Below, in pieces: positions 9,828 to 41,137 of a stretch of DNA of 62,593 nt (the first letter of the stretch is position 1; every line of letters starts with the position of its first letter). The position numbers were made by a program, and so were the translations under genes. Origin of the DNA: Actinomycetota bacterium (GTDB lineage: Bacteria; Actinomycetota; UBA4738; HRBIN12). The stretch lies in assembly GCA_046724395.1 (NCBI GenBank), contig JBKOWM010000002.1, positions 1-62,593 of the forward strand. Reading direction: 5' to 3'. Under the pieces are notes generated by a model. It saw nothing but the letters and a program-made list of their open reading frames with translations, was not told the origin of the DNA and made no database searches.

Positions 9828-13228
<3,401 letters not shown>

Positions 13229-13232
<4 letters not shown>

Positions 13233-15229
13233 GCCCGGGCCTCCATCGGCTCGACCCGCAGGATGTGCGCCGGCTGACGTTCGGGGCGTAGCTCGACGAA
13301 GTTGTAGGCACCGCCCCACGCGAACGCGGCGCCGCTCAGAAGGTCGCGCGCCACGAAGGGAGCGTCGTCGGCGAGGCCGAGCTCGGGCATGTCGAGGCTC
13401 GTCCATCCCGCCTGCGGGAATCCCGGATCGAGGTTCGCCACCACGAGCACGACGTTCGATCCGTCCGGCGTCCGCTTGCTGTACGCCAGTAACGAGGGGT
13501 TGTCGGTACTGTGGAAGCGCAGTTGACGGTCGTGCTGGAGGGCGGGCTCGGCGCGGCGGATCCCGTTCACGCGGGCGACGAGCTCTCGCATGGCGCCGCC
13601 GCCCCGCGGATCGCGCCAGCGGATCTCGTATTTCTCCGAGTGGAGATACTCTTCGGAACCGGGCTCGCGCGGCTCGTGCTCGAGATGCTCGAACGCCGGA
13701 CCGTAGATGCCGTAGTTCGCGCCGAGCGTTGCCGCGAGGACGAACCGCAGCCGGAAGGCTGCGGGATTCCCGCTGTGCAGCTGATCGGTAAGGATGTCCG
13801 GCGTGTTGGGCCACAGGTTCGCGCGAAAGAAGTCGACGAGCGGCGGGCTCGTCAGCTCCTCGAAGTACGCGCGCAGCTCGTCACCTCCACGCCGCCACGC
13901 GAAGTATGTGTACGACTGGTCGAACCCGAGCTTGGCCAGCCGGTACATCACTTTGGGGCGCGTGAACGCCTCCGACAGGAAGAGGACGTCGGGATGCTCC
14001 CGTTTGATCTCCGCGATGAGCCACTCCCAGAAGGCAAGCGGCTTCGTGTGCGGGTTGTCGACGCGGAACACACGTACGCCGTGATCGACCCAAAAGCGCA
14101 CCACGTCCAACAGCGCCTCCCACAGCGCCCGCCAGTCCGCCGTCTCGAAGTCCAGCGGAACGATGTCCTCGTACTTCTTCGGCGGGTTCTCCGCATAGCG
14201 GATCGAGCCGTCGGGCCGGTGTCGGAACCAGTCCGGGTGCTCCCGCACCCATGGGTGGTCGGGTGAGCACTGAAAGGCTAGGTCGAGCGCGAGCTCCATG
14301 TGGTGCTCCAGCAGCGTCTTGGTGAGCAGCTCGACGTCGTCGACCGTCCCGATGTCCGGATCGACGGCCGTGTGGCCGCCGTCCTCGTTCCCGATGGCCC
14401 AAGGAGAGCCGGGGTCGCCCGCCACGGCGTGCATGGCGTTGTTCGGACCCTTGCGCTTTGTACGCCCGATGGGGTGGATCGGCGGCAGATACAGCACGTC
14501 GAATCCGCGTTCCGCGAGCTCCGGGACGAGGTCCGCGACGTCGCGCAACGTCCCCGGCCGACCGGCCTCCGGCGAGGCCGACCGGGGGAAGAGCTCGTAC
14601 CACGCGCCCCATCGCGCGCGCTCGCGGTCGACGGCCAGCCGAAACTCCGCCGACGCCGACGCGCCACGCCGTTGATCGGGGTACCGCATCATGAGCGCTG
14701 CGAGCTCCTCCGACGTGGCGACCTCGGCATATTCCTCCAGCCTCGGCCGCCTCAGGCGCTGCGCCCACTCCCTCAGCCGATCGACGTCGGGTCCGATCGC
14801 GCGACGCGCCGCCGCCGAGACGAGTTGCGCTCCGACGCCGAGCTCGGGCCCTAGGTCCTGCTCGGCGGCGAGGCGTTTTAACAGGTCCTCGCGCCACGAC
14901 CCGAACGCGTCGATCCACGCACCGACCTGGAACCGGTATTCGCCCACCTCGACGACGCGGAACGATCCGCGCCACCGGTCGTTGCCGTCGAGGAGCGTCA
15001 TCGCCGACTCCTGCCAATCGTCGGCGCGCTCGGATCGAAAGCGGATCGCGGCGCCGATCCGGTCGTGGCCGTCCGCGAACACGTCCGCCTCGACGTCGAC
15101 GAGATCGCCGACGATGCGCTTGGCGGGAAAGCGGCCGCCGTCGACGACGGGCTGTACGCCCTCGATGACGACCCGGTTGCGACCCTCGTTCGGTACCACC
15201 TGATCTCCCCGACCGGCGCCCGCCGTCAC
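13229..15229 (-). CDS. glgE: Alpha-1,4-glucan:maltose-1-phosphate maltosyltransferase GlgE
   Basis: 666 aa. VIEGVQPVVDGGRFPAKRIVGD, VFRVDNPHTKPLAFWEWLI, FLSEAFTRPKVMYRLAKLGF. Confidence 0.95.
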
Positions 15230-15298
15230 GAAAGACGCGCCGATCCGGCGCGCTCCGGTCAGGTTACCGGAGGTCCCAGCGGCATTCGCCGCGGCGCG

Positions 15299-15409
15299 TT
15301 ACTCGGTCTGGACCGGCTGGTCTTTGTGCTCCTCGAGGTGCCGCTCCAACGCCGCCTCGTCGTCGAACGTCGAGCCGCAGACCGGGCAGGTCTTGGTGAG
15401 ATCGCCCAT
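15299..15409 (-). CDS. Unannotated 36-aa ORF encoding a single classical C2H2 zinc-finger motif
   Basis: Hand translation: MGDLTKTCPVCGSTFDDEAALERHLEEHKDQPVQTE. The spacing is C-X2-C-X3-F-X5-L-X2-H-X3-H. 34 of 36 codons end in G/C. GGTAGGA lies 7 nt upstream of the ATG. It is below the ORF-track size cutoff. Confidence 0.45.
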   Translation of the reverse strand: MGDLTKTCPVCGSTFDDEAALERHLEEHKDQPVQTE

Positions 15410-15641
15410 CGCTTCGTCCTACCCACCCGCGGCGCGTGTGATCTCATCCTCGTCCGAACGCGCGGGGACCTTGACTCCCGGCGTCGTATTGGGCTCGCCG
15501 GTCCGACGGAAGGCCCATCGGCCTGAACGCCCGTCGGGCGGAAGACGGCGGGGCGGAAGGGTCGTGTCAGGAGCGGCTCCTCTGCCGCCCGACCTCGCGA
15601 CCGTTGCCGGGCGTTCGCTGAACGGCCCGAGCGAGAACGCG

Positions 15642-15848
15642 CTACTGGCCGCCCTTTTGCACGTATGACGTCACGAACTCCTCGGCGTTCTCCTCGAGGA
15701 CGGCGTCGATCTCATCGAGCAGGTCGTCCAGGTCGTGACGGACCTCGTCGGCGTGGCGCGCGGACCGGCGCGAGCTCTGCTCGCGCGCCTCCGCGTCGTC
15801 GCGGCCGCGGTTGCGGCGCTGCTGCTGTTGCCGGATCCGTGTCGCCAT
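15642..15848 (-). CDS. pup: Prokaryotic ubiquitin-like protein Pup (68 aa, C-terminal GGQ)
   Basis: MATRIRQQQQ...HDLDDLLDEIDAVLEENAEEFVTSYVQKGGQ matches the Pup C-terminal signature. GGAGGTG SD lies just upstream of the ATG at 15846-15848. The 360-aa ORF-track entry is an artefactual extension. Confidence 0.9.
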   Translation of the reverse strand: MATRIRQQQQRRNRGRDDAEAREQSSRRSARHADEVRHDLDDLLDEIDAVLEENAEEFVTSYVQKGGQ

Positions 15849-15931
15849 CACACCTCCGATCCTCGAGGTGTCGGCGTCCGCCGGGCGCGGTTGATGGCCC
15901 GTAGGGGTGGTCTTGATGCAGTCCGGCCGGA

Positions 15932-17278
15932 TCACTCCGGGGCCGTCGACCGCCCCCCCGGTGGCCAGGCGAAACCGTCCCACGGGTCGTAGTCCACCTC
16001 GAGGGGCTCCTGCGGCGGGCGGTCGGGCTCGGGGACGTTGCGAAGGTTGAGGCGGATCCTCGTCCACGTCGTGTGACGGCCGCGCATCGCGTCGATCAGG
16101 ACGTCGGCCGGCTGGAGCCGTTCCCAGACGTCGGGATGGCGCTGGCGCCAGCGATCGAGTCCGGCCATCGCCTCGGCCTCCGTCTCGGCGCGAGCGATCT
16201 CGATGAGCGGCATCGTCGATCGACGCCTGCCCGCCGACCCTCCATATCGCGCGGTTGCCCCGGAACGCGCCGACGTGGACGGGCGTCGCTTCGAGGGCTG
16301 GACACGCGGAGGCTCGCCGGGCTGCTTCTCGTAGTGCGGCGGCCATGGCGCGTCGCCCAGCCCCGCCTCCTCGTGTTCCATCGAGAGCTCCAGCAGGCGA
16401 TCGAGCGATCCGGGCGCGTCGTCTATCCCGGCGGCGGGATCCCCGATCGTGGCAACACGCTCGGGCACGGTATCGATCGTGAACGCGGCCGGGTCGCACG
16501 CCGGGACCTCGTCCCACGCCAGCGGCGTCGAGACCCGGGCGTCGGGTGTGGGGCGGACCGAGTAGGCGGACGCCGTCGTCCGGTCTTTGGCGTTCTGGTT
16601 GTAGTCCAGGAACACGCCGTGACGCTCCTCCTTCCACCACTTGCTCGTCGCCAGGTCCGGCGCGCGCCGCTCGACCTCGCGCGCGACCGCAAGCGCGGCG
16701 CGTCGAACCTGCGTGAACGTCCACCGCGGCTCGATCCGAGAGAAGACGTGCATACCGCGCGACCCCGACGTCTTAGGCCAACCGACGAGGCCGTAGGCTC
16801 CGAGGACGTCGCGCGTGACCATCGCGACGTCACGGACCTGACTCCACTCGACCCCGCGCACCGGATCGAGGTCGACGCGGAGCTCGTCGGGATGCTCGAG
16901 ATCGTCGGCCCGGACCGGGTGCGGGTTGAGGTCGACGCATCCGAGGTTCACGATCCACGCAAGCTGCGCCGCGTTCGTCACAACGATCTCGTCCGCCGTG
17001 CGCCCGGACGGAAACGCCAGCGTTACGGTCTCGATCCACGCCGGCCGAGACGACGGTGCGCGCTTCTGGAAGAACGGCGGCTCCTCGACGCCGTTCACGT
17101 AGCGCTTCAGCGCCATCGGCCGCCCGGCGACCCCGCGAACCGCCCCGTCGCGCACGGCCAGGTAGAAGCGGACCAGATCGATCTTCGTGTAGCCGGTCTT
17201 CGGGAAGAAGACCTTGTCCGGGTTGGAGATCGAGACCTCGTGGCCGTCGATCTCGAGGGTCGCCTTTCGCGACGGCAT
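15932..17278 (-). CDS. Stand-alone LigD-type primase-polymerase (NHEJ PolDom / Prim-Pol-like) with a C-terminal extension of about 150 aa
   Basis: ISNPDKVFFP, MALKRYVNGVEEPPFFQKRAP, GCVDLNPHPVR, ELRVDLDP, WPKTSGSRGMHVF, VFLDYNQNAKDRTTASAYSVRP. No ligase or nuclease domain is present in the ORF. Confidence 0.85.
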   Translation of the reverse strand: MPSRKATLEIDGHEVSISNPDKVFFPKTGYTKIDLVRFYLAVRDGAVRGVAGRPMALKRYVNGVEEPPFFQKRAPSSRPAWIETVTLAFPSGRTADEIVVTNAAQLAWIVNLGCVDLNPHPVRADDLEHPDELRVDLDPVRGVEWSQVRDVAMVTRDVLGAYGLVGWPKTSGSRGMHVFSRIEPRWTFTQVRRAALAVAREVERRAPDLATSKWWKEERHGVFLDYNQNAKDRTTASAYSVRPTPDARVSTPLAWDEVPACDPAAFTIDTVPERVATIGDPAAGIDDAPGSLDRLLELSMEHEEAGLGDAPWPPHYEKQPGEPPRVQPSKRRPSTSARSGATARYGGSAGRRRSTMPLIEIARAETEAEAMAGLDRWRQRHPDVWERLQPADVLIDAMRGRHTTWTRIRLNLRNVPEPDRPPQEPLEVDYDPWDGFAWPPGGRSTAPE

Positions 17279-40114: not shown

Positions 40115-40185
40115 TTCCGGGGGGAGGAATCGAACCTCCATACCGGGCTCCAAAGGCCCGTGTCTTGCCGTTAGACCACCCCGGA
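40115..40185 (-). tRNA. tRNA-Gln, anticodon UUG
   Basis: Reverse complement: acceptor TCCGGGG/CCCCGGA, anticodon stem CGGGC/GCCCG with loop CTTTGGA, T-arm GGAGG-TTCGATT-CCTCC. Folded by eye. Confidence 0.8.
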
Positions 40186-40249: not shown

Positions 40250-41137
40250 CTACCCCGCGGGCGCGGGTCCGGACACCGCGACGGCGCGTTCGAACGCCGC
40301 CACCAGATCACGCGCGTGCGAGCCGTCACGTGCGAGCCCGGCGATCGACGAGCCGCTCCCGCTCATCACGGCGCCGAGGGCACCGGCCTCGACGAGGCGA
40401 CGCTTCATGTCCGCGAGCTCCGGATGGCGTTCGAAGACCGGGCGTTCGAGGTCGTTGAACAACAGTGGGCCGAGGCGTTCGACATCGCCGTGGCGGGCGG
40501 CCTCGAGTTGCTCGCGCGTGTCGGATCGGCTTTCGGGCGAGGTCTCGTCCCACCACCGGTAGGCGTCGGGCGAGCGAACGCCGAACGGCATCGCGACCAC
40601 GATCCACCACAGCTCGGGCACCTCCACGTCCTCGAGCCGGTCCCCTCGTCCGCTGATGAGCACCGGTCCGCGCGCGAGCATCGCCGGCACATCCGAGCCG
40701 ACGTGCGCGCCGATCTCGAGGAGCGTCGTCCGATCGAGCCCGCATTCCCACAGCTCGTTCAGCGCCGAGATCGTCGCGGCGGCATCGGCGCTCCCGCCGC
40801 CGAGGCCGGCCGCGACCGGGATCCGTTTCGCGATCCGGATCTCGGCACCGCGCGATCCGCCACACGACTCGGCGAGCGCGAGCGCGGCGACGAGGGCAAG
40901 GTTCGGCCCGACGGTCGGAATGCCGGTCGCTCCCCCACCGTTCGCCGCGTCCACGACCTCGACGTGCAGACGGGCCGCCGGCGACACCGTGACGTCGTCC
41001 GCCAGCGACAGCGGCACGACGAGGCTCTCGAGCTCGTGGTACCCGTCGTCGCGGCGCGAGATCACCCGGAGGAAGACGTTCAGCTTCGCTCGCGCGCGGC
41101 GACGTACGACGGCGGCGAACCCGACGTCGGTCGTCAC
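40250..41137 (-). CDS. ispE: 4-diphosphocytidyl-2-C-methyl-D-erythritol kinase
   Basis: AKLNVFLRV, KRIPVAAGLGGGSADAAATISALN. GTG overlaps the ksgA TGA (GTGA at 41134-41137). Confidence 0.93.
   Translation of the reverse strand: MTTDVGFAAVVRRRARAKLNVFLRVISRRDDGYHELESLVVPLSLADDVTVSPAARLHVEVVDAANGGGATGIPTVGPNLALVAALALAESCGGSRGAEIRIAKRIPVAAGLGGGSADAAATISALNELWECGLDRTTLLEIGAHVGSDVPAMLARGPVLISGRGDRLEDVEVPELWWIVVAMPFGVRSPDAYRWWDETSPESRSDTREQLEAARHGDVERLGPLLFNDLERPVFERHPELADMKRRLVEAGALGAVMSGSGSSIAGLARDGSHARDLVAAFERAVAVSGPAPAG

What the first reader, a model, noticed from the sequence alone, without database searches (positions are those of the whole stretch)
15299..15409. Unannotated mini-gene encoding a textbook C2H2 zinc finger
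The 36-codon minus-strand ORF MGDLTKTCPVCGSTFDDEAALERHLEEHKDQPVQTE fits the classical C2H2 consensus exactly (C-X2-C-X3-F-X5-L-X2-H-X3-H), including both hydrophobic core positions. 34 of 36 codons end in G/C, matching the coding bias here, and a GGTAGGA lies 7 nt before the ATG. It is too short for the ORF track. It sits between pup and glgE on the same strand. To my knowledge a free-standing single finger of this type is not a described bacterial gene class, and the Ros/MucR prokaryotic finger has different spacing.
Basis: seen in the sequence. Interest (0 to 1): 0.7.

Follow-up and report, generated by a model that had tools for sequence, protein, structure and literature searches.

The report
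Conserved 36-residue bacterial zinc-finger gene
The 36-codon reading frame is a real, conserved gene of a small group of uncultured soil Actinomycetota; it encodes a very acidic, free-standing classical C2H2 zinc finger, always sits directly in front of the alpha-glucan gene glgE, and probably works by binding another protein rather than DNA.

Summary
Window 15299-15409 (-) encodes MGDLTKTCPVCGSTFDDEAALERHLEEHKDQPVQTE, and this motif did not arise in any of 200 simulated windows.

It is a real gene. Thirteen related loci carry the same 36-codon frame (64-89% identity, no indels). Variable columns fall 12/8/28 on codon positions 1/2/3, and dN/dS is about 0.3. The zinc ligands, the HLEEH helix end and the PVQTE tail are almost invariant. 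No other frame can explain the pattern.

AlphaFold gives a beta-beta-alpha fold that superposes on classical fingers at 0.4-2 A.

Its T lies exactly 12 nt before the ATG/GTG in 12 of 13 loci, and no Shine-Dalgarno is conserved. This points to a leaderless mRNA from a SigB/SigF-type stress promoter (inferred).

The gene is always immediately upstream of glgE and often just after an orphan pup. It is absent from relatives whose GlgE is 68% identical or less.

Net charge is -5 to -8, which argues against DNA binding. I propose a zinc-stabilised protein-docking module, with the partner unproven.

It belongs to the already described class of small CPxCG-related or C2H2 prokaryotic finger proteins, and JGI already calls its homologues. 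It is therefore a new, uncharacterised family rather than a new class.

The parts
15299..15409 (-). 36-codon CDS (the stop codon TAA is at 15299-15301) for an acidic stand-alone C2H2 zinc finger: MGDLTKTCPVCGSTFDDEAALERHLEEHKDQPVQTE. Zinc ligands are C8, C11, H24 and H28. The hydrophobic core is F15 and L21. The C-terminal tail is conserved: P32-E36 invariant, Q31 replaced by A in one locus.
   Evidence: Searches give the sequence. Searches give the homologues. Searches give the codon-position pattern, dN/dS and the exclusion of the other frames. Searches give the predicted fold.
15419..15424 (-). GGGTAG, a putative -10 box of SigB/SigF (group 3 sigma) type. Its T lies at -12 relative to the A of the ATG, which implies a leaderless transcript starting at the start codon.
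   Evidence: GGGTA (GTGTA in one locus) is the only conserved upstream element. It keeps an invariant 9-nt gap to the ATG/GTG in 12 of 13 loci, and no Shine-Dalgarno is conserved. The consensus and the distance to the transcription start come from PMC8346170 and PMC6448022. No start-site data exist, so this is an inference.
15228..15272 (-). Structured spacer between the finger gene and glgE. It holds the hairpin CTCCGGT-AACCTG-ACCGGAG (which contains CGGTAA), then the hairpin GCGCGCC-GGAT-CGGCGCG followed by TCTTTCGT. It may be the terminator or attenuator of the finger gene, or the promoter and 5' hairpin of glgE.
   Evidence: Eight related loci have GTGT(A/G)G-N13-GGGTAT plus a GC hairpin with changed but still complementary arms, followed by TTTCGTCGTGTCCG, at the same place. 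L017 and L018 lack this element and have only a 44-46 nt spacer. The function is unresolved.
13229..15199 (-). glgE (alpha-1,4-glucan:maltose-1-phosphate maltosyltransferase), with GTG start at 15199 preceded by GGGGAGATC. It is the invariant downstream neighbour of the finger gene and heads the cluster glgE, treS-mak, malQ, glgX-like.
15642..15848 (-). pup (68 aa, ending ...YVQKGGQ), the upstream neighbour. It is an orphan copy: no dop, pafA, mpa or proteasome genes are present in the window.
   Evidence: Pfam Pup is recorded on the homologous genes in L010, L017 and on the contig carrying P0009.

Best explanation
A real, clade-restricted small-protein gene. The 36-residue product folds, around one Zn(II) held by C8, C11, H24 and H28, into a single classical beta-beta-alpha C2H2 finger with a short flexible tail.

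The gene is transcribed from a GGGTA-type (-10) promoter of the SigB/SigF stress-sigma kind. Its RNA starts at the A/G of the start codon, so the mRNA is leaderless. It is either the first cistron of the glgE alpha-glucan operon (44-46 nt spacer in L017 and L018) or a separate unit directly in front of that operon (the window and most other loci).

The peptide carries a net charge of -5 to -8. It lacks the basic contacts and linker of DNA-binding fingers. Its most constrained surface is the helix end L25-E26-E27-H28 plus the tail Q-P-V-Q-T-E. It therefore most likely acts as a zinc-dependent protein-docking module that modulates a partner. The best candidate partner is an enzyme of the adjacent GlgE/TreS-Mak pathway; the second candidate is Pup.

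What is shown: the ORF, its conservation, purifying selection at the protein level, the motif, the synteny, and the upstream GGGTA geometry. What is inferred: zinc binding, the fold (a prediction), the leaderless start, the sigma type, the protein-binding role, and the identity of the partner.

Sub-confidences: real translated gene 0.9; Zn-bound beta-beta-alpha fold 0.8; leaderless transcript from a GGGTA promoter 0.65; acts by protein binding rather than DNA binding 0.6; partner lies in the GlgE pathway 0.3. The overall figure of 0.6 refers to the statement up to and including 'protein-docking module', not to the identity of the partner.
For: Conservation of the frame:
- 13 homologous loci all have exactly 36 codons and no indels, with ATG or GTG at the same place and TGA or TAA at the same place. 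The flanking spacers are unalignable and vary from 44 to 176 nt.
- Variable columns are 12/8/28 of 35 for codon positions 1/2/3.
- NG86 dN/dS is 0.30. pN/pS is 0.06/0.32 for residues 8-15, 0.008/0.33 for residues 23-28 and 0.06/0.33 for the tail 29-36, but about 1 in segments 2-7 and 16-22. The constraint is therefore on the protein, not the nucleotides.
- Other frames are excluded. Two antisense and two sense frames carry stops in several loci. The remaining antisense frame would put the variable sites at codon position 1.

Fold:
- AlphaFold2 on the 10-sequence alignment gives pLDDT 79.7 with two short strands, a helix at 18-29 and a low-confidence tail.
- The top Foldseek PDB matches are all classical fingers (rmsd 0.4-0.6 A over 23-26 residues for 1mey and ZBTB24).
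- The family profile aligns column for column with the consensus designed finger CPECGKSF..L..H...H.

Promoter:
- The start-anchored alignment shows only GGGTA conserved, at -15 to -11.
- L017 and L018 show a full GGTTCG-N14-GGGTAG-N9-ATG.
- In Streptomyces SigB-family promoters the -10 box is GGGNAN (first three G and fifth-position A almost invariant), with 8-11 nt listed between it and the transcription start (PMC8346170).
- GGGTA is the SigF -10 motif, and 24% of transcripts are leaderless in M. smegmatis (PMC6448022).

Synteny:
- glgE is the next gene in every locus where the downstream gene could be read, even though the upstream neighbours differ: pup after ligD, ligD alone, pup after a CLIPPER-repeat protein, pup after unrelated small genes, or another gene in L006.
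- Net charge is -5 to -8 in all members.
Against: - No expression data of any kind: no transcription start site, Ribo-seq or peptide evidence.
- All carriers form one narrow clade (GlgE at least 74% identical), so conserved adjacency to glgE may partly be inherited gene order rather than functional coupling.
- No GlgE feature distinguishes carriers from non-carriers: only 7 scattered clade-specific columns and no indels.
- The -35 element is weak or absent in the window's own promoter. The -10 hexamer ends in C rather than T, so the sigma assignment is tentative. GGGTA-N10-RTG is not enriched in the window (1 found, 0.75 expected).
- The Pfam scores of the window peptide fall just below the gathering thresholds.
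- L006 lacks the start codon and GGGTA, and fuses the finger to a signal-peptide-like extension. This fits poorly with a cytoplasmic partner.
- Acidic fingers can still act on DNA together with a partner protein, as proposed for the archaeal Brz (PMC2253796).
Confidence: 0.6

Rival explanations
1. Brz-like transcription regulator. The mini-finger, alone or with a co-factor, binds DNA or RNA near the glgE promoter and controls the operon it precedes.
For: Brz of Halobacterium is a small CPxCG-type zinc-finger protein encoded directly upstream of, and in the same orientation as, the gene it regulates (PMC2253796). Helix positions -1 (D17) and 6 (R23) are nearly invariant. The spacer before glgE carries conserved motifs that could be operators. 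The closest structural matches are DNA-binding fingers.
Against: Net charge is -5 to -8, with only 2-4 basic residues. There is no basic flank of the kind a single finger such as GAGA needs for affinity (established knowledge). Helix positions 2 and 3 are variable. The conserved spacer motifs are absent from L017 and L018, although the peptide is conserved there.
Confidence: 0.15
2. Pup-associated factor. The acidic finger binds the unusually basic N-terminal half of this clade's Pup, or a pupylation enzyme. This would resemble the way eukaryotic C2H2-type UBZ fingers bind ubiquitin.
For: pup is the immediate upstream gene in the window and in L010, L011, L013, L015, L016, L017, L018 and the P0009 contig. 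The pup-finger pair stays together in front of glgE even when the genes upstream of pup differ. This pup is an orphan, away from dop, pafA, mpa and the proteasome genes. The TAX1BP1 UBZ fingers are among the Foldseek matches (31 columns, 39% identity). Pfam Zn-C2H2_12 (autophagy-receptor finger) scores 20.8 bits.
Against: Four loci (L001, L003, L005, L014) have the finger without an adjacent pup, whereas glgE is always adjacent. Pup is disordered and is not a ubiquitin fold, so the UBZ analogy is only formal (established knowledge). The UBZ matches are no better than the matches to ordinary fingers. No invariant lysine exists for pupylation: K29 is E or R in some members.
Confidence: 0.12
3. 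Leaderless upstream ORF acting in cis. It is the act of translating the short ORF, not the peptide, that tunes transcription or termination into glgE through the downstream hairpin and U-rich tract.
For: Leaderless short ORFs are often the first gene of actinobacterial operons, and some act as attenuators (abstract of bioRxiv 10.1101/834739). A hairpin plus T-rich tract lies between the ORF and glgE in most loci.
Against: Selection acts on the amino-acid sequence of a specific fold. pN/pS is 0.008/0.33 for the HLEEH segment and 0.06/0.33 for the tail, and all four ligands are invariant. A cis-acting uORF would not need any of this. The stop codon is 40 nt or more from the hairpin in most loci, too far for a terminating ribosome to mask it. 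L017 and L018 have no hairpin.
Confidence: 0.06
4. Zinc-handling peptide, acting as a small zinc buffer, sensor or chaperone rather than as a docking module.
For: It is a minimal single-site zinc peptide, very acidic, and apparently expressed from a stress-type promoter.
Against: One site per 36 residues is poor buffering capacity. Nothing in the neighbourhood concerns zinc: no zur, znuABC or ribosomal-protein paralogues. The invariant non-ligand tail and the LEE surface point to recognition of a macromolecule.
Confidence: 0.04
5. Not a gene: a chance ORF, or a conserved non-coding element that happens to be open.
For: It is very short, lies in a 70% G+C genome where long spurious ORFs abound, and has no expression data.
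Against: The motif occurred in 0 of 200 simulated windows. The length and frame are invariant across 13 loci amid indel-rich spacers. Variation is concentrated at third codon positions. dN/dS is 0.3, with near-zero pN at the ligand and helix segments while pS stays uniform at about 0.33.
Confidence: 0.02

Closest known systems
Classical eukaryotic C2H2 (Kruppel/TFIIIA-type) zinc finger, Pfam PF00096 and PF13894
   Same: It has the exact C-X2-C-X3-F-X5-L-X2-H-X3-H spacing and the CPxCG knuckle, with a predicted beta-beta-alpha fold. The family profile aligns along its whole finger with the consensus designed finger 1mey and with Aart. The same profile also retrieves thousands of polydactyl finger proteins.
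   Different: It is a single free-standing finger of 36 residues in a bacterium. It is strongly acidic and has no TGEKP linker or basic DNA and phosphate contacts. Its own invariant tail is PVQTE. The Pfam scores lie just under the gathering cut-offs.
[quoted passage not shown] Brz of Halobacterium salinarum and HVO_0758/HVO_2753 of Haloferax
   Same: It meets the published motif definition: a CPxCG pattern plus a second Cys/His pair 7-40 residues away, in a protein under 100 aa (PMC2253796). It is a one-domain protein. Like brz, it lies directly upstream of, and co-oriented with, a specific gene.
   Different: The characterised members are archaeal, mostly C4 zinc ribbons of 50-70 aa. This one is bacterial and shorter, with a C2H2 beta-beta-alpha type finger. 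There is no detectable sequence homology beyond the motif: the haloarchaeal DUF families score only 13-15 bits.
AFV1p06 and related single C2H2 fingers of crenarchaeal viruses (PMC3541406)
   Same: These are prokaryote-associated, small, single classical-fold C2H2 finger proteins.
   Different: AFV1p06 binds DNA and belongs to an archaeal and viral family for which no bacterial homologue was found (PMC3541406). The peptide here is acidic and is chromosomal in Actinomycetota. No relative was found in 2.9 million viral contigs, and matches to PHROGs are only weak.
Ros/MucR prokaryotic zinc finger
   Same: It is a bacterial protein with Cys2His2 zinc coordination.
   Different: From established knowledge, Ros has C-X2-C-X9-H-X3/4-H within a globular DNA-binding domain of about 58 residues with a different topology, in proteins of about 140 aa from Alphaproteobacteria. 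The spacing, size, charge and taxon all differ here.
YacG-type small zinc-finger protein inhibitors (E. coli gyrase inhibitor). This is a functional analogy recalled from the literature, not tested here.
   Same: It is a tiny zinc-stabilised domain with a conserved tail that docks on an enzyme. That is the mode of action proposed for this peptide.
   Different: YacG is a C4 finger of about 65 aa with no sequence relation. No partner has been identified for the peptide here.

Membership tests
Classical C2H2 zinc finger (PF00096 / PF13894) | Ligand spacing C-X2-4-C-X12-H-X3-5-H, with conserved aromatic and aliphatic core residues | tested here: met
   C8-X2-C11-X3-F15-X5-L21-X2-H24-X3-H28. The ligands and L21 are invariant, and F15 is present in 12 of 13 homologues.
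Classical C2H2 zinc finger (PF00096 / PF13894) | Score at or above Pfam's curated gathering threshold | tested here: not met
   24.4 bits against a cut-off of 27 (PF13894) and 22.5 against 25.2 (PF00096) for the window peptide. Homologues carry precomputed hits marked 'weak'. This is a near miss for a single 23-residue domain.
Classical C2H2 zinc finger (PF00096 / PF13894) | Beta-hairpin plus alpha-helix (beta-beta-alpha) fold | tested here: met
   This is a prediction only. The AF2 model has pLDDT 79.7, two short strands and a helix at 18-29. It superposes on 1mey, ZBTB24 and Zif268 fingers at rmsd 0.4-0.8 A.
Classical C2H2 zinc finger (PF00096 / PF13894) | Binds one Zn(II) tetrahedrally | not testable with these tools
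   This needs metal titration of the peptide.
DNA-binding C2H2 fingers (functional subclass) | Basic residues at the helix and flanks for base and phosphate contacts; tandem fingers or a basic extension | tested here: not met
   It is a single finger with net charge -5 to -8 and no basic flank. Helix positions 2 and 3 are variable.
CPxCG-related small zinc-finger proteins (Tarasov et al. 2008) | One CPxCG-like pattern plus a second pair of Cys/His separated by 2-3 residues, with the two patterns 7-40 residues apart, in a protein under 100 aa | tested here: met
   CPVCG at residues 8-12 and H-LEE-H at 24-28, 11 residues apart, in a 36-aa protein. The definition was read in PMC2253796. The class is defined by motif, not by homology.
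Ros/MucR | C-X2-C-X9-H-X3-4-H inside a globular domain of about 58 residues | tested here: not met
   The spacing is X12 and the whole protein is only 36 aa. No Ros/MucR family appears among the Pfam matches.
Leaderless mRNA gene | Transcription start at the start codon: a -10 box about 7-10 nt upstream, no Shine-Dalgarno, and an ATG or GTG start | tested here: inconclusive
   The geometry is met in 12 of 13 loci: GGGTA with T at -12, a 9-nt gap, ATG or GTG, and no conserved purine-rich box. No start-site data are available.
SigB/SigF-type (group 3 sigma) promoter | A G(T/N)(T/N)T -35 box, 12-17 nt of spacer, and a GGGTA(T/C/G) -10 box | tested here: inconclusive
   The -10 box GGGTA is met in 11 of 13 loci, and one further locus has GTGTA. 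A good -35 box (GGTTCG-N14) is present only in L017 and L018, and is weak or absent in the window. The consensus was read in PMC8346170 and PMC6448022. The sigma gene itself was not looked for.
LysW/amino-group carrier proteins and Pup (small acidic proteins ligated through a C-terminal Glu) | A C-terminal EDWGE motif (LysW) or GGQ/GGE motif (Pup), with an adjacent ATP-grasp (LysX) or PafA/Dop ligase | tested here: not met
   The tail is PVQTE. No ATP-grasp, pafA or dop gene is present in the 62.6-kb window. LysW appears only as a marginal match limited to the CPxCG knuckle (5k2m_E, E = 0.007).

The most novel reading that the evidence does not exclude
A bacterial, free-standing, classical-fold C2H2 finger of only 36 residues that does not bind nucleic acid. 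Instead it acts as a stress-induced (SigB/SigF-type, leaderless), zinc-dependent docking subunit. Through its invariant LEEH-x3-PVQTE surface it would switch an enzyme of the GlgE alpha-glucan pathway, or couple that pathway to Pup. It would be the first functionally defined classical zinc finger in bacteria that works by protein-protein contact, and a new regulator of the GlgE pathway.
Probability: 0.25. Interest if true: 0.7.

Novelty: new member of a known kind. Interest (0 to 1): 0.5.

Why it matters
Classical C2H2 fingers are regarded as 'practically absent in bacteria' (PMC3541406), and the characterised one-domain zinc-finger micro-proteins are mostly archaeal C4 ribbons. This is a minimal natural classical finger, with essentially nothing but the domain and a 7-residue tail, kept under strong purifying selection in a bacterial lineage. 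It is wired to a defined pathway, the GlgE alpha-glucan route, which is a drug target in mycobacteria, and to an orphan pup.

It gives a very tractable object. A 36-mer can be synthesised, metal-loaded, solved by NMR and used as bait. It also shows how such genes escape ORF tracks, and how they get nonsense names such as 'SbcCD ATPase subunit' when they are called.

Its reach is limited by its narrow distribution (about a dozen sequence clusters, all from uncultured Actinomycetota) and by the absence of any functional data.

Tried and rejected
Only one 36-aa representative appeared in the top 150, so distant small relatives could not be listed.
- Two word-indexed searches found only 10 family clusters.
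- The GTDB genome scan found one carrier MAG (L003). Its other hit (L004), and hits L007-L009 of the metagenome scan, were unrelated proteins sharing only TCPVCGSTF.
- The viral contig scan found no relative. PHROGs gave only weak matches. NCBIfam gave nothing meaningful.
- Rfam showed no RNA family in or around the ORF at either the gathering or the permissive threshold.
- The sigma-70 consensus scan found no promoter in 14900-16100. GGGTA-N10-RTG is not enriched in the window, with 1 found against 0.75 expected. A search for G[GT][GT]T-N14-17-GGGTA in the window gave only two other sites of unclear meaning.
- I looked for a GlgE signature specific to finger-carrying genomes, comparing 20 carriers with 98 non-carriers. 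It gave 7 scattered columns and no indels, which is not informative.
- I searched for paralogues of the peptide and for repeats of the 232-nt pup-finger spacer in the window and loci, and found none.
- The literature search for GlgE together with zinc finger found nothing relevant.
- A LysW-like or Pup-like C-terminal-Glu carrier or modifier was considered and rejected. The motifs do not fit and no ligase gene is nearby.
- A Shine-Dalgarno reading of GGTAGGA was rejected because AGGA is not conserved.
- Extra nucleotide-level constraint on the 3' half of the ORF was considered because synonymous codon differences are fewer than in glgE (0.17 against 0.31). It was rejected because pS is uniform, at about 0.33, along the ORF.
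Full report
**1. The observation.**
- Window 15299-15409 (-) reads ATG...TAA and translates to MGDLTKTCPVCGSTFDDEAALERHLEEHKDQPVQTE.
- An in-frame TAG lies four codons upstream, so the ATG is the first possible start.
- The ORF sits between pup (15642-15848, -; product ends ...YVQKGGQ) and glgE (13229-15199, -).
- The strict pattern C-X2-C-X3-F-X5-L-X2-H-X3-H occurs once in the six-frame translation of the window. It occurred in 0 of 200 second-order Markov simulations.
- Pfam zf-C2H2_4 and zf-C2H2 match end to end but just below their curated cut-offs: 24.4 against 27 bits, and 22.5 against 25.2 bits.

**2. Is it a gene?**
- Word-indexed searches of 5.8 billion proteins found ten clusters of homologues, 64-89% identical. 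All are 36 aa, apart from one over-extended 52-aa call.
- With the loci fetched around these proteins and around GlgE homologues, I have 13 independent related loci.
- In every one the frame has exactly 36 codons and no indel. The start is ATG or GTG at the same place and the stop is TGA or TAA. The flanking spacers cannot be aligned, and the spacer to glgE varies from 44 to 176 nt.
- Variable alignment columns fall 12/8/28 (of 35 each) on codon positions 1/2/3.
- Nei-Gojobori dN/dS averages 0.30. By segment, pN/pS is:
  - 0.06/0.32 for the knuckle and core (residues 8-15);
  - 0.008/0.33 for R23-H28;
  - 0.06/0.33 for the tail (residues 29-36);
  - about 1 for residues 2-7 and 16-22.
- Synonymous divergence is even along the ORF, so the strong conservation of the 3' half is at the protein level and not an RNA or DNA element.
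- Of the five other frames, four carry stops in several loci. The fifth, the codon-for-codon antisense frame, would put the variable sites at its first codon position.
- The exact window peptide is already recorded as a called protein on five contigs from NCBI, JGI and Logan.
- Conclusion: this is a protein-coding gene under purifying selection.

**3. What the product looks like.**
- Invariant or near-invariant residues are G2, T7, C8, P9, C11, G12, T14, F15, D17, L21, R23, H24, L25, E26, E27, H28, and the tail Q31-P-V-Q-T-E36. Q31 is replaced by A in one locus.
- AlphaFold2 on the family alignment gives a beta-hairpin plus a helix at 18-29, with pLDDT 79.7. Blocks 11-30 score 86-90, and the tail scores 62.
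- The best Foldseek PDB matches are all classical C2H2 fingers: 1mey, ZBTB24, Zif268, CTCF and GAGA, at rmsd 0.4-2 A. The C2H2-type UBZ fingers of TAX1BP1 also appear.
- The family profile aligns column for column with the consensus designed finger, CPECGKSF-x5-L-x2-H-x3-H. In the 1.84-billion-protein library it retrieves thousands of multi-finger proteins.
- Sequence and predicted fold are therefore those of the classical finger.
- What is unlike a DNA-binding finger:
  - There is only one finger.
  - Net charge is -5 to -8 in every member.
  - There are no basic flanks and no TGEKP-type linker.
  - Helix positions 2 and 3 are variable.
- The most constrained non-ligand surface is the helix end L25-E26-E27 plus the low-confidence (probably flexible) tail PVQTE.

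**4. How it is expressed (inferred).**
- When the loci are aligned on the start codon, the only conserved upstream element is GGGTA at -15 to -11 (GTGTA in one locus).
- Exactly nine unconserved bases separate the hexamer GGGTAN from the ATG or GTG. No purine-rich Shine-Dalgarno is conserved.
- The two most divergent loci show a complete GGTTCG-N14-GGGTAG-N9-ATG.
- GGGTA(T/C/G) is the -10 box of SigB/SigF-family sigma factors. In Streptomyces coelicolor SigB-homologue promoters the first three G and the fifth-position A are almost invariant, the -35 box is poorly conserved, and 8-11 nt are listed between the hexamer and the transcription start (PMC8346170).
- In Mycobacterium smegmatis GGGTA marks SigF promoters, 24% of transcripts are leaderless, and ATG or GTG at the 5' end suffices for initiation (PMC6448022).
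- The geometry here therefore points to a leaderless mRNA starting at the start codon, made from a stress-type promoter.
Its AGGA part is not conserved.
- Caveats: the window's own -35 box is poor, there are no start-site data, and GGGTA-N10-RTG is not enriched elsewhere in the window.

**5. Genomic context.**
- The window looks like a housekeeping stretch of actinobacterial type. It holds mfd, mazG, eno, divIC, ppx, prs, glmU, ispE, ksgA and an rpf-like gene.
- Close GlgE homologues come from MAGs labelled Actinomycetota bacterium.
- The finger gene heads the cluster glgE, treS-mak, malQ, glgX-like.
- glgE is the next gene in every locus where the downstream gene could be read, but the upstream neighbour varies:
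  - pup after ligD (the window and L010);
  - pup, with ligD not checked or the contig too short (L011, L013, L015, L016 and the P0009 contig);
  - ligD directly, without pup (L001, L003, L005, L014);
  - pup after a CLIPPER-repeat protein (L017);
  - pup after unrelated small genes (L018);
  - another gene altogether in L006.
- In L017 and L018 the spacer to glgE is only 44-46 nt, with a Shine-Dalgarno and nothing else. There the finger is plausibly the first cistron of the glgE operon.
- In the other loci the spacer holds GTGT(A/G)G-N13-GGGTAT (CGGTAA in the window), a GC hairpin whose arms change but stay complementary, and TTTCGTCGTGTCCG. This could be a second SigB/F-like promoter with a 5' hairpin, or the finger gene's terminator or attenuator. 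I could not resolve this.
- Relatives whose GlgE is 68% and 65% identical (L019, L020) have no such ORF in any frame within 4 kb of glgE. A relative at 74% (L018) has it.
- The family is thus confined to one narrow clade. This weakens synteny as evidence of functional linkage, although the glgE adjacency has survived several upstream rearrangements.

**6. Mechanism.**
- I commit to the following: a zinc-stabilised, acidic protein-docking module that uses the LEEH helix end and the PVQTE tail to bind a partner. The most likely partner is an enzyme of the adjacent GlgE/TreS-Mak pathway.
- This rests on charge, the conservation pattern and synteny. It is an inference, not a demonstration.
- I found no GlgE feature specific to carrier genomes, and no paper links GlgE to a zinc finger.
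- Rivals:
  - a Brz-like regulator of the downstream operon (PMC2253796);
  - a Pup-binding factor, suggested by the orphan, unusually basic Pup next door and the formal resemblance to UBZ fingers;
  - a cis-acting leaderless uORF, which protein-level selection contradicts;
  - a zinc-handling peptide;
  - a non-gene, which is refuted.

**7. Comparison with what is known.**
- The peptide meets the sequence and predicted-fold definition of a classical C2H2 finger. It narrowly misses the Pfam thresholds and fails the features of the DNA-binding subclass.
- It meets the published motif definition of 'CPxCG-related small zinc finger proteins'. These are described as 8% of small archaeal proteins and 1.5% of small bacterial proteins (PMC2253796; PMC10716476).
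- It is not Ros/MucR, because the spacing and size are wrong. It is not LysW-like or Pup-like, because the tail motif does not fit and no ligase gene is nearby.
- Classical C2H2 fingers are reported as 'practically absent in bacteria', with 489 UniProt examples in 2013. The AFV1p06 family was found to have no bacterial homologue (PMC3541406).
- JGI's pipeline already calls these 36-aa genes. It names one 'uncharacterized C2H2 Zn-finger protein' and gives others spurious names such as 'SbcCD ATPase subunit' and 'DUF899'.
- The kind is therefore known. This particular family, its bacterial host, its acidity, its tail, its leaderless GGGTA promoter and its tie to glgE and pup are new and uncharacterised.

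**8. Verdict.**
It is a classical-type finger and a real mini-gene, but the 'ribosome site' is a promoter box, and the gene class is not undescribed.
- Novelty: a new member of a known kind.
- Interest: 0.5. It is a clean, synthesisable, minimal natural zinc finger with a defined genomic partner set, but it has a narrow distribution and no functional evidence.

Noticed in passing
window 15228-15272 (-); L001, L003, L005, L006, L011, L013, L015, L016 between the finger gene and glgE: The spacer in front of glgE is conserved and structured. Eight loci have GTGT(A/G)G-N13-GGGTAT, which looks like a SigB/SigF promoter. A GC hairpin follows, whose arms differ between loci but stay complementary, and then TTTCGTCGTGTCCG. 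The window and L010 have a variant: CTCCGGTAACCTGACCGGAG plus GCGCGCC-GGAT-CGGCGCG-TCTTTCGT. It could be the glgE promoter with a 5' stabilising hairpin, an attenuator, or the finger gene's terminator. No Rfam family matches.
   Followed up: partly
window 15642-15848 (-): The pup gene is an orphan: no dop, pafA, mpa/arc or prcAB in the 62.6-kb window. The N-terminal half of the product is unusually basic or His-rich in this clade (RIRQQQQRRNRGR here; RMRQQQHHHRHRD, RLQEQRVRSREHH in relatives). The C-terminus varies between GGQ and GGE. The pup-finger-glgE triad persists in L017 and L018, where the genes upstream of pup are different.
   Followed up: partly
L006 1458-1685 (+): In one metagenomic relative the finger has no start codon of its own and no GGGTA box. 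It is instead in frame with a 39-codon extension, MRRRLLALLILALISATVAGTVANAKGRAD..., which looks like a signal peptide or membrane anchor. GC3 of the extension, counted by eye, is about 85%. It may be a fusion variant, a rearrangement or an assembly chimera.
   Followed up: no
window 15410-15641 (-): The pup-finger spacer is 232 nt in the window but only 30 nt in the closest relative, L010. The extra sequence has no repeat elsewhere in the window or the loci, and no Rfam match.
   Followed up: partly
homologues P0001, P0002, P0004, P0008, P0282, P0285: JGI's automatic names for these 36-aa proteins are spurious transfers: 'DNA repair exonuclease SbcCD ATPase subunit', probably through similarity to the Rad50 zinc hook, and 'predicted dithiol-disulfide oxidoreductase (DUF899)'. 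Only some are named 'uncharacterized C2H2 Zn-finger protein'.
   Followed up: yes
window 9828-13814 and 13229-15199 (-): The listed ORF for the treS-mak fusion gene (1328 aa from the first start) overlaps the end of glgE by several hundred bases. Relatives show glgE and treS-mak overlapping by only 4 nt and a TreS-Mak protein of about 1107-1112 aa. The true start of treS-mak in the window is therefore well downstream of the first GTG in the ORF.
   Followed up: no
window 40250-40276 (-), about 65 nt upstream of the tRNA at 40115-40185: This is one of only two other matches in the window to G[GT][GT]T-N14-17-GGGTA[TCG] (GTGTCC...GGGTAG). It lies just upstream of the tRNA gene, at the end of the ispE-like ORF. 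Its significance is unknown.
   Followed up: no
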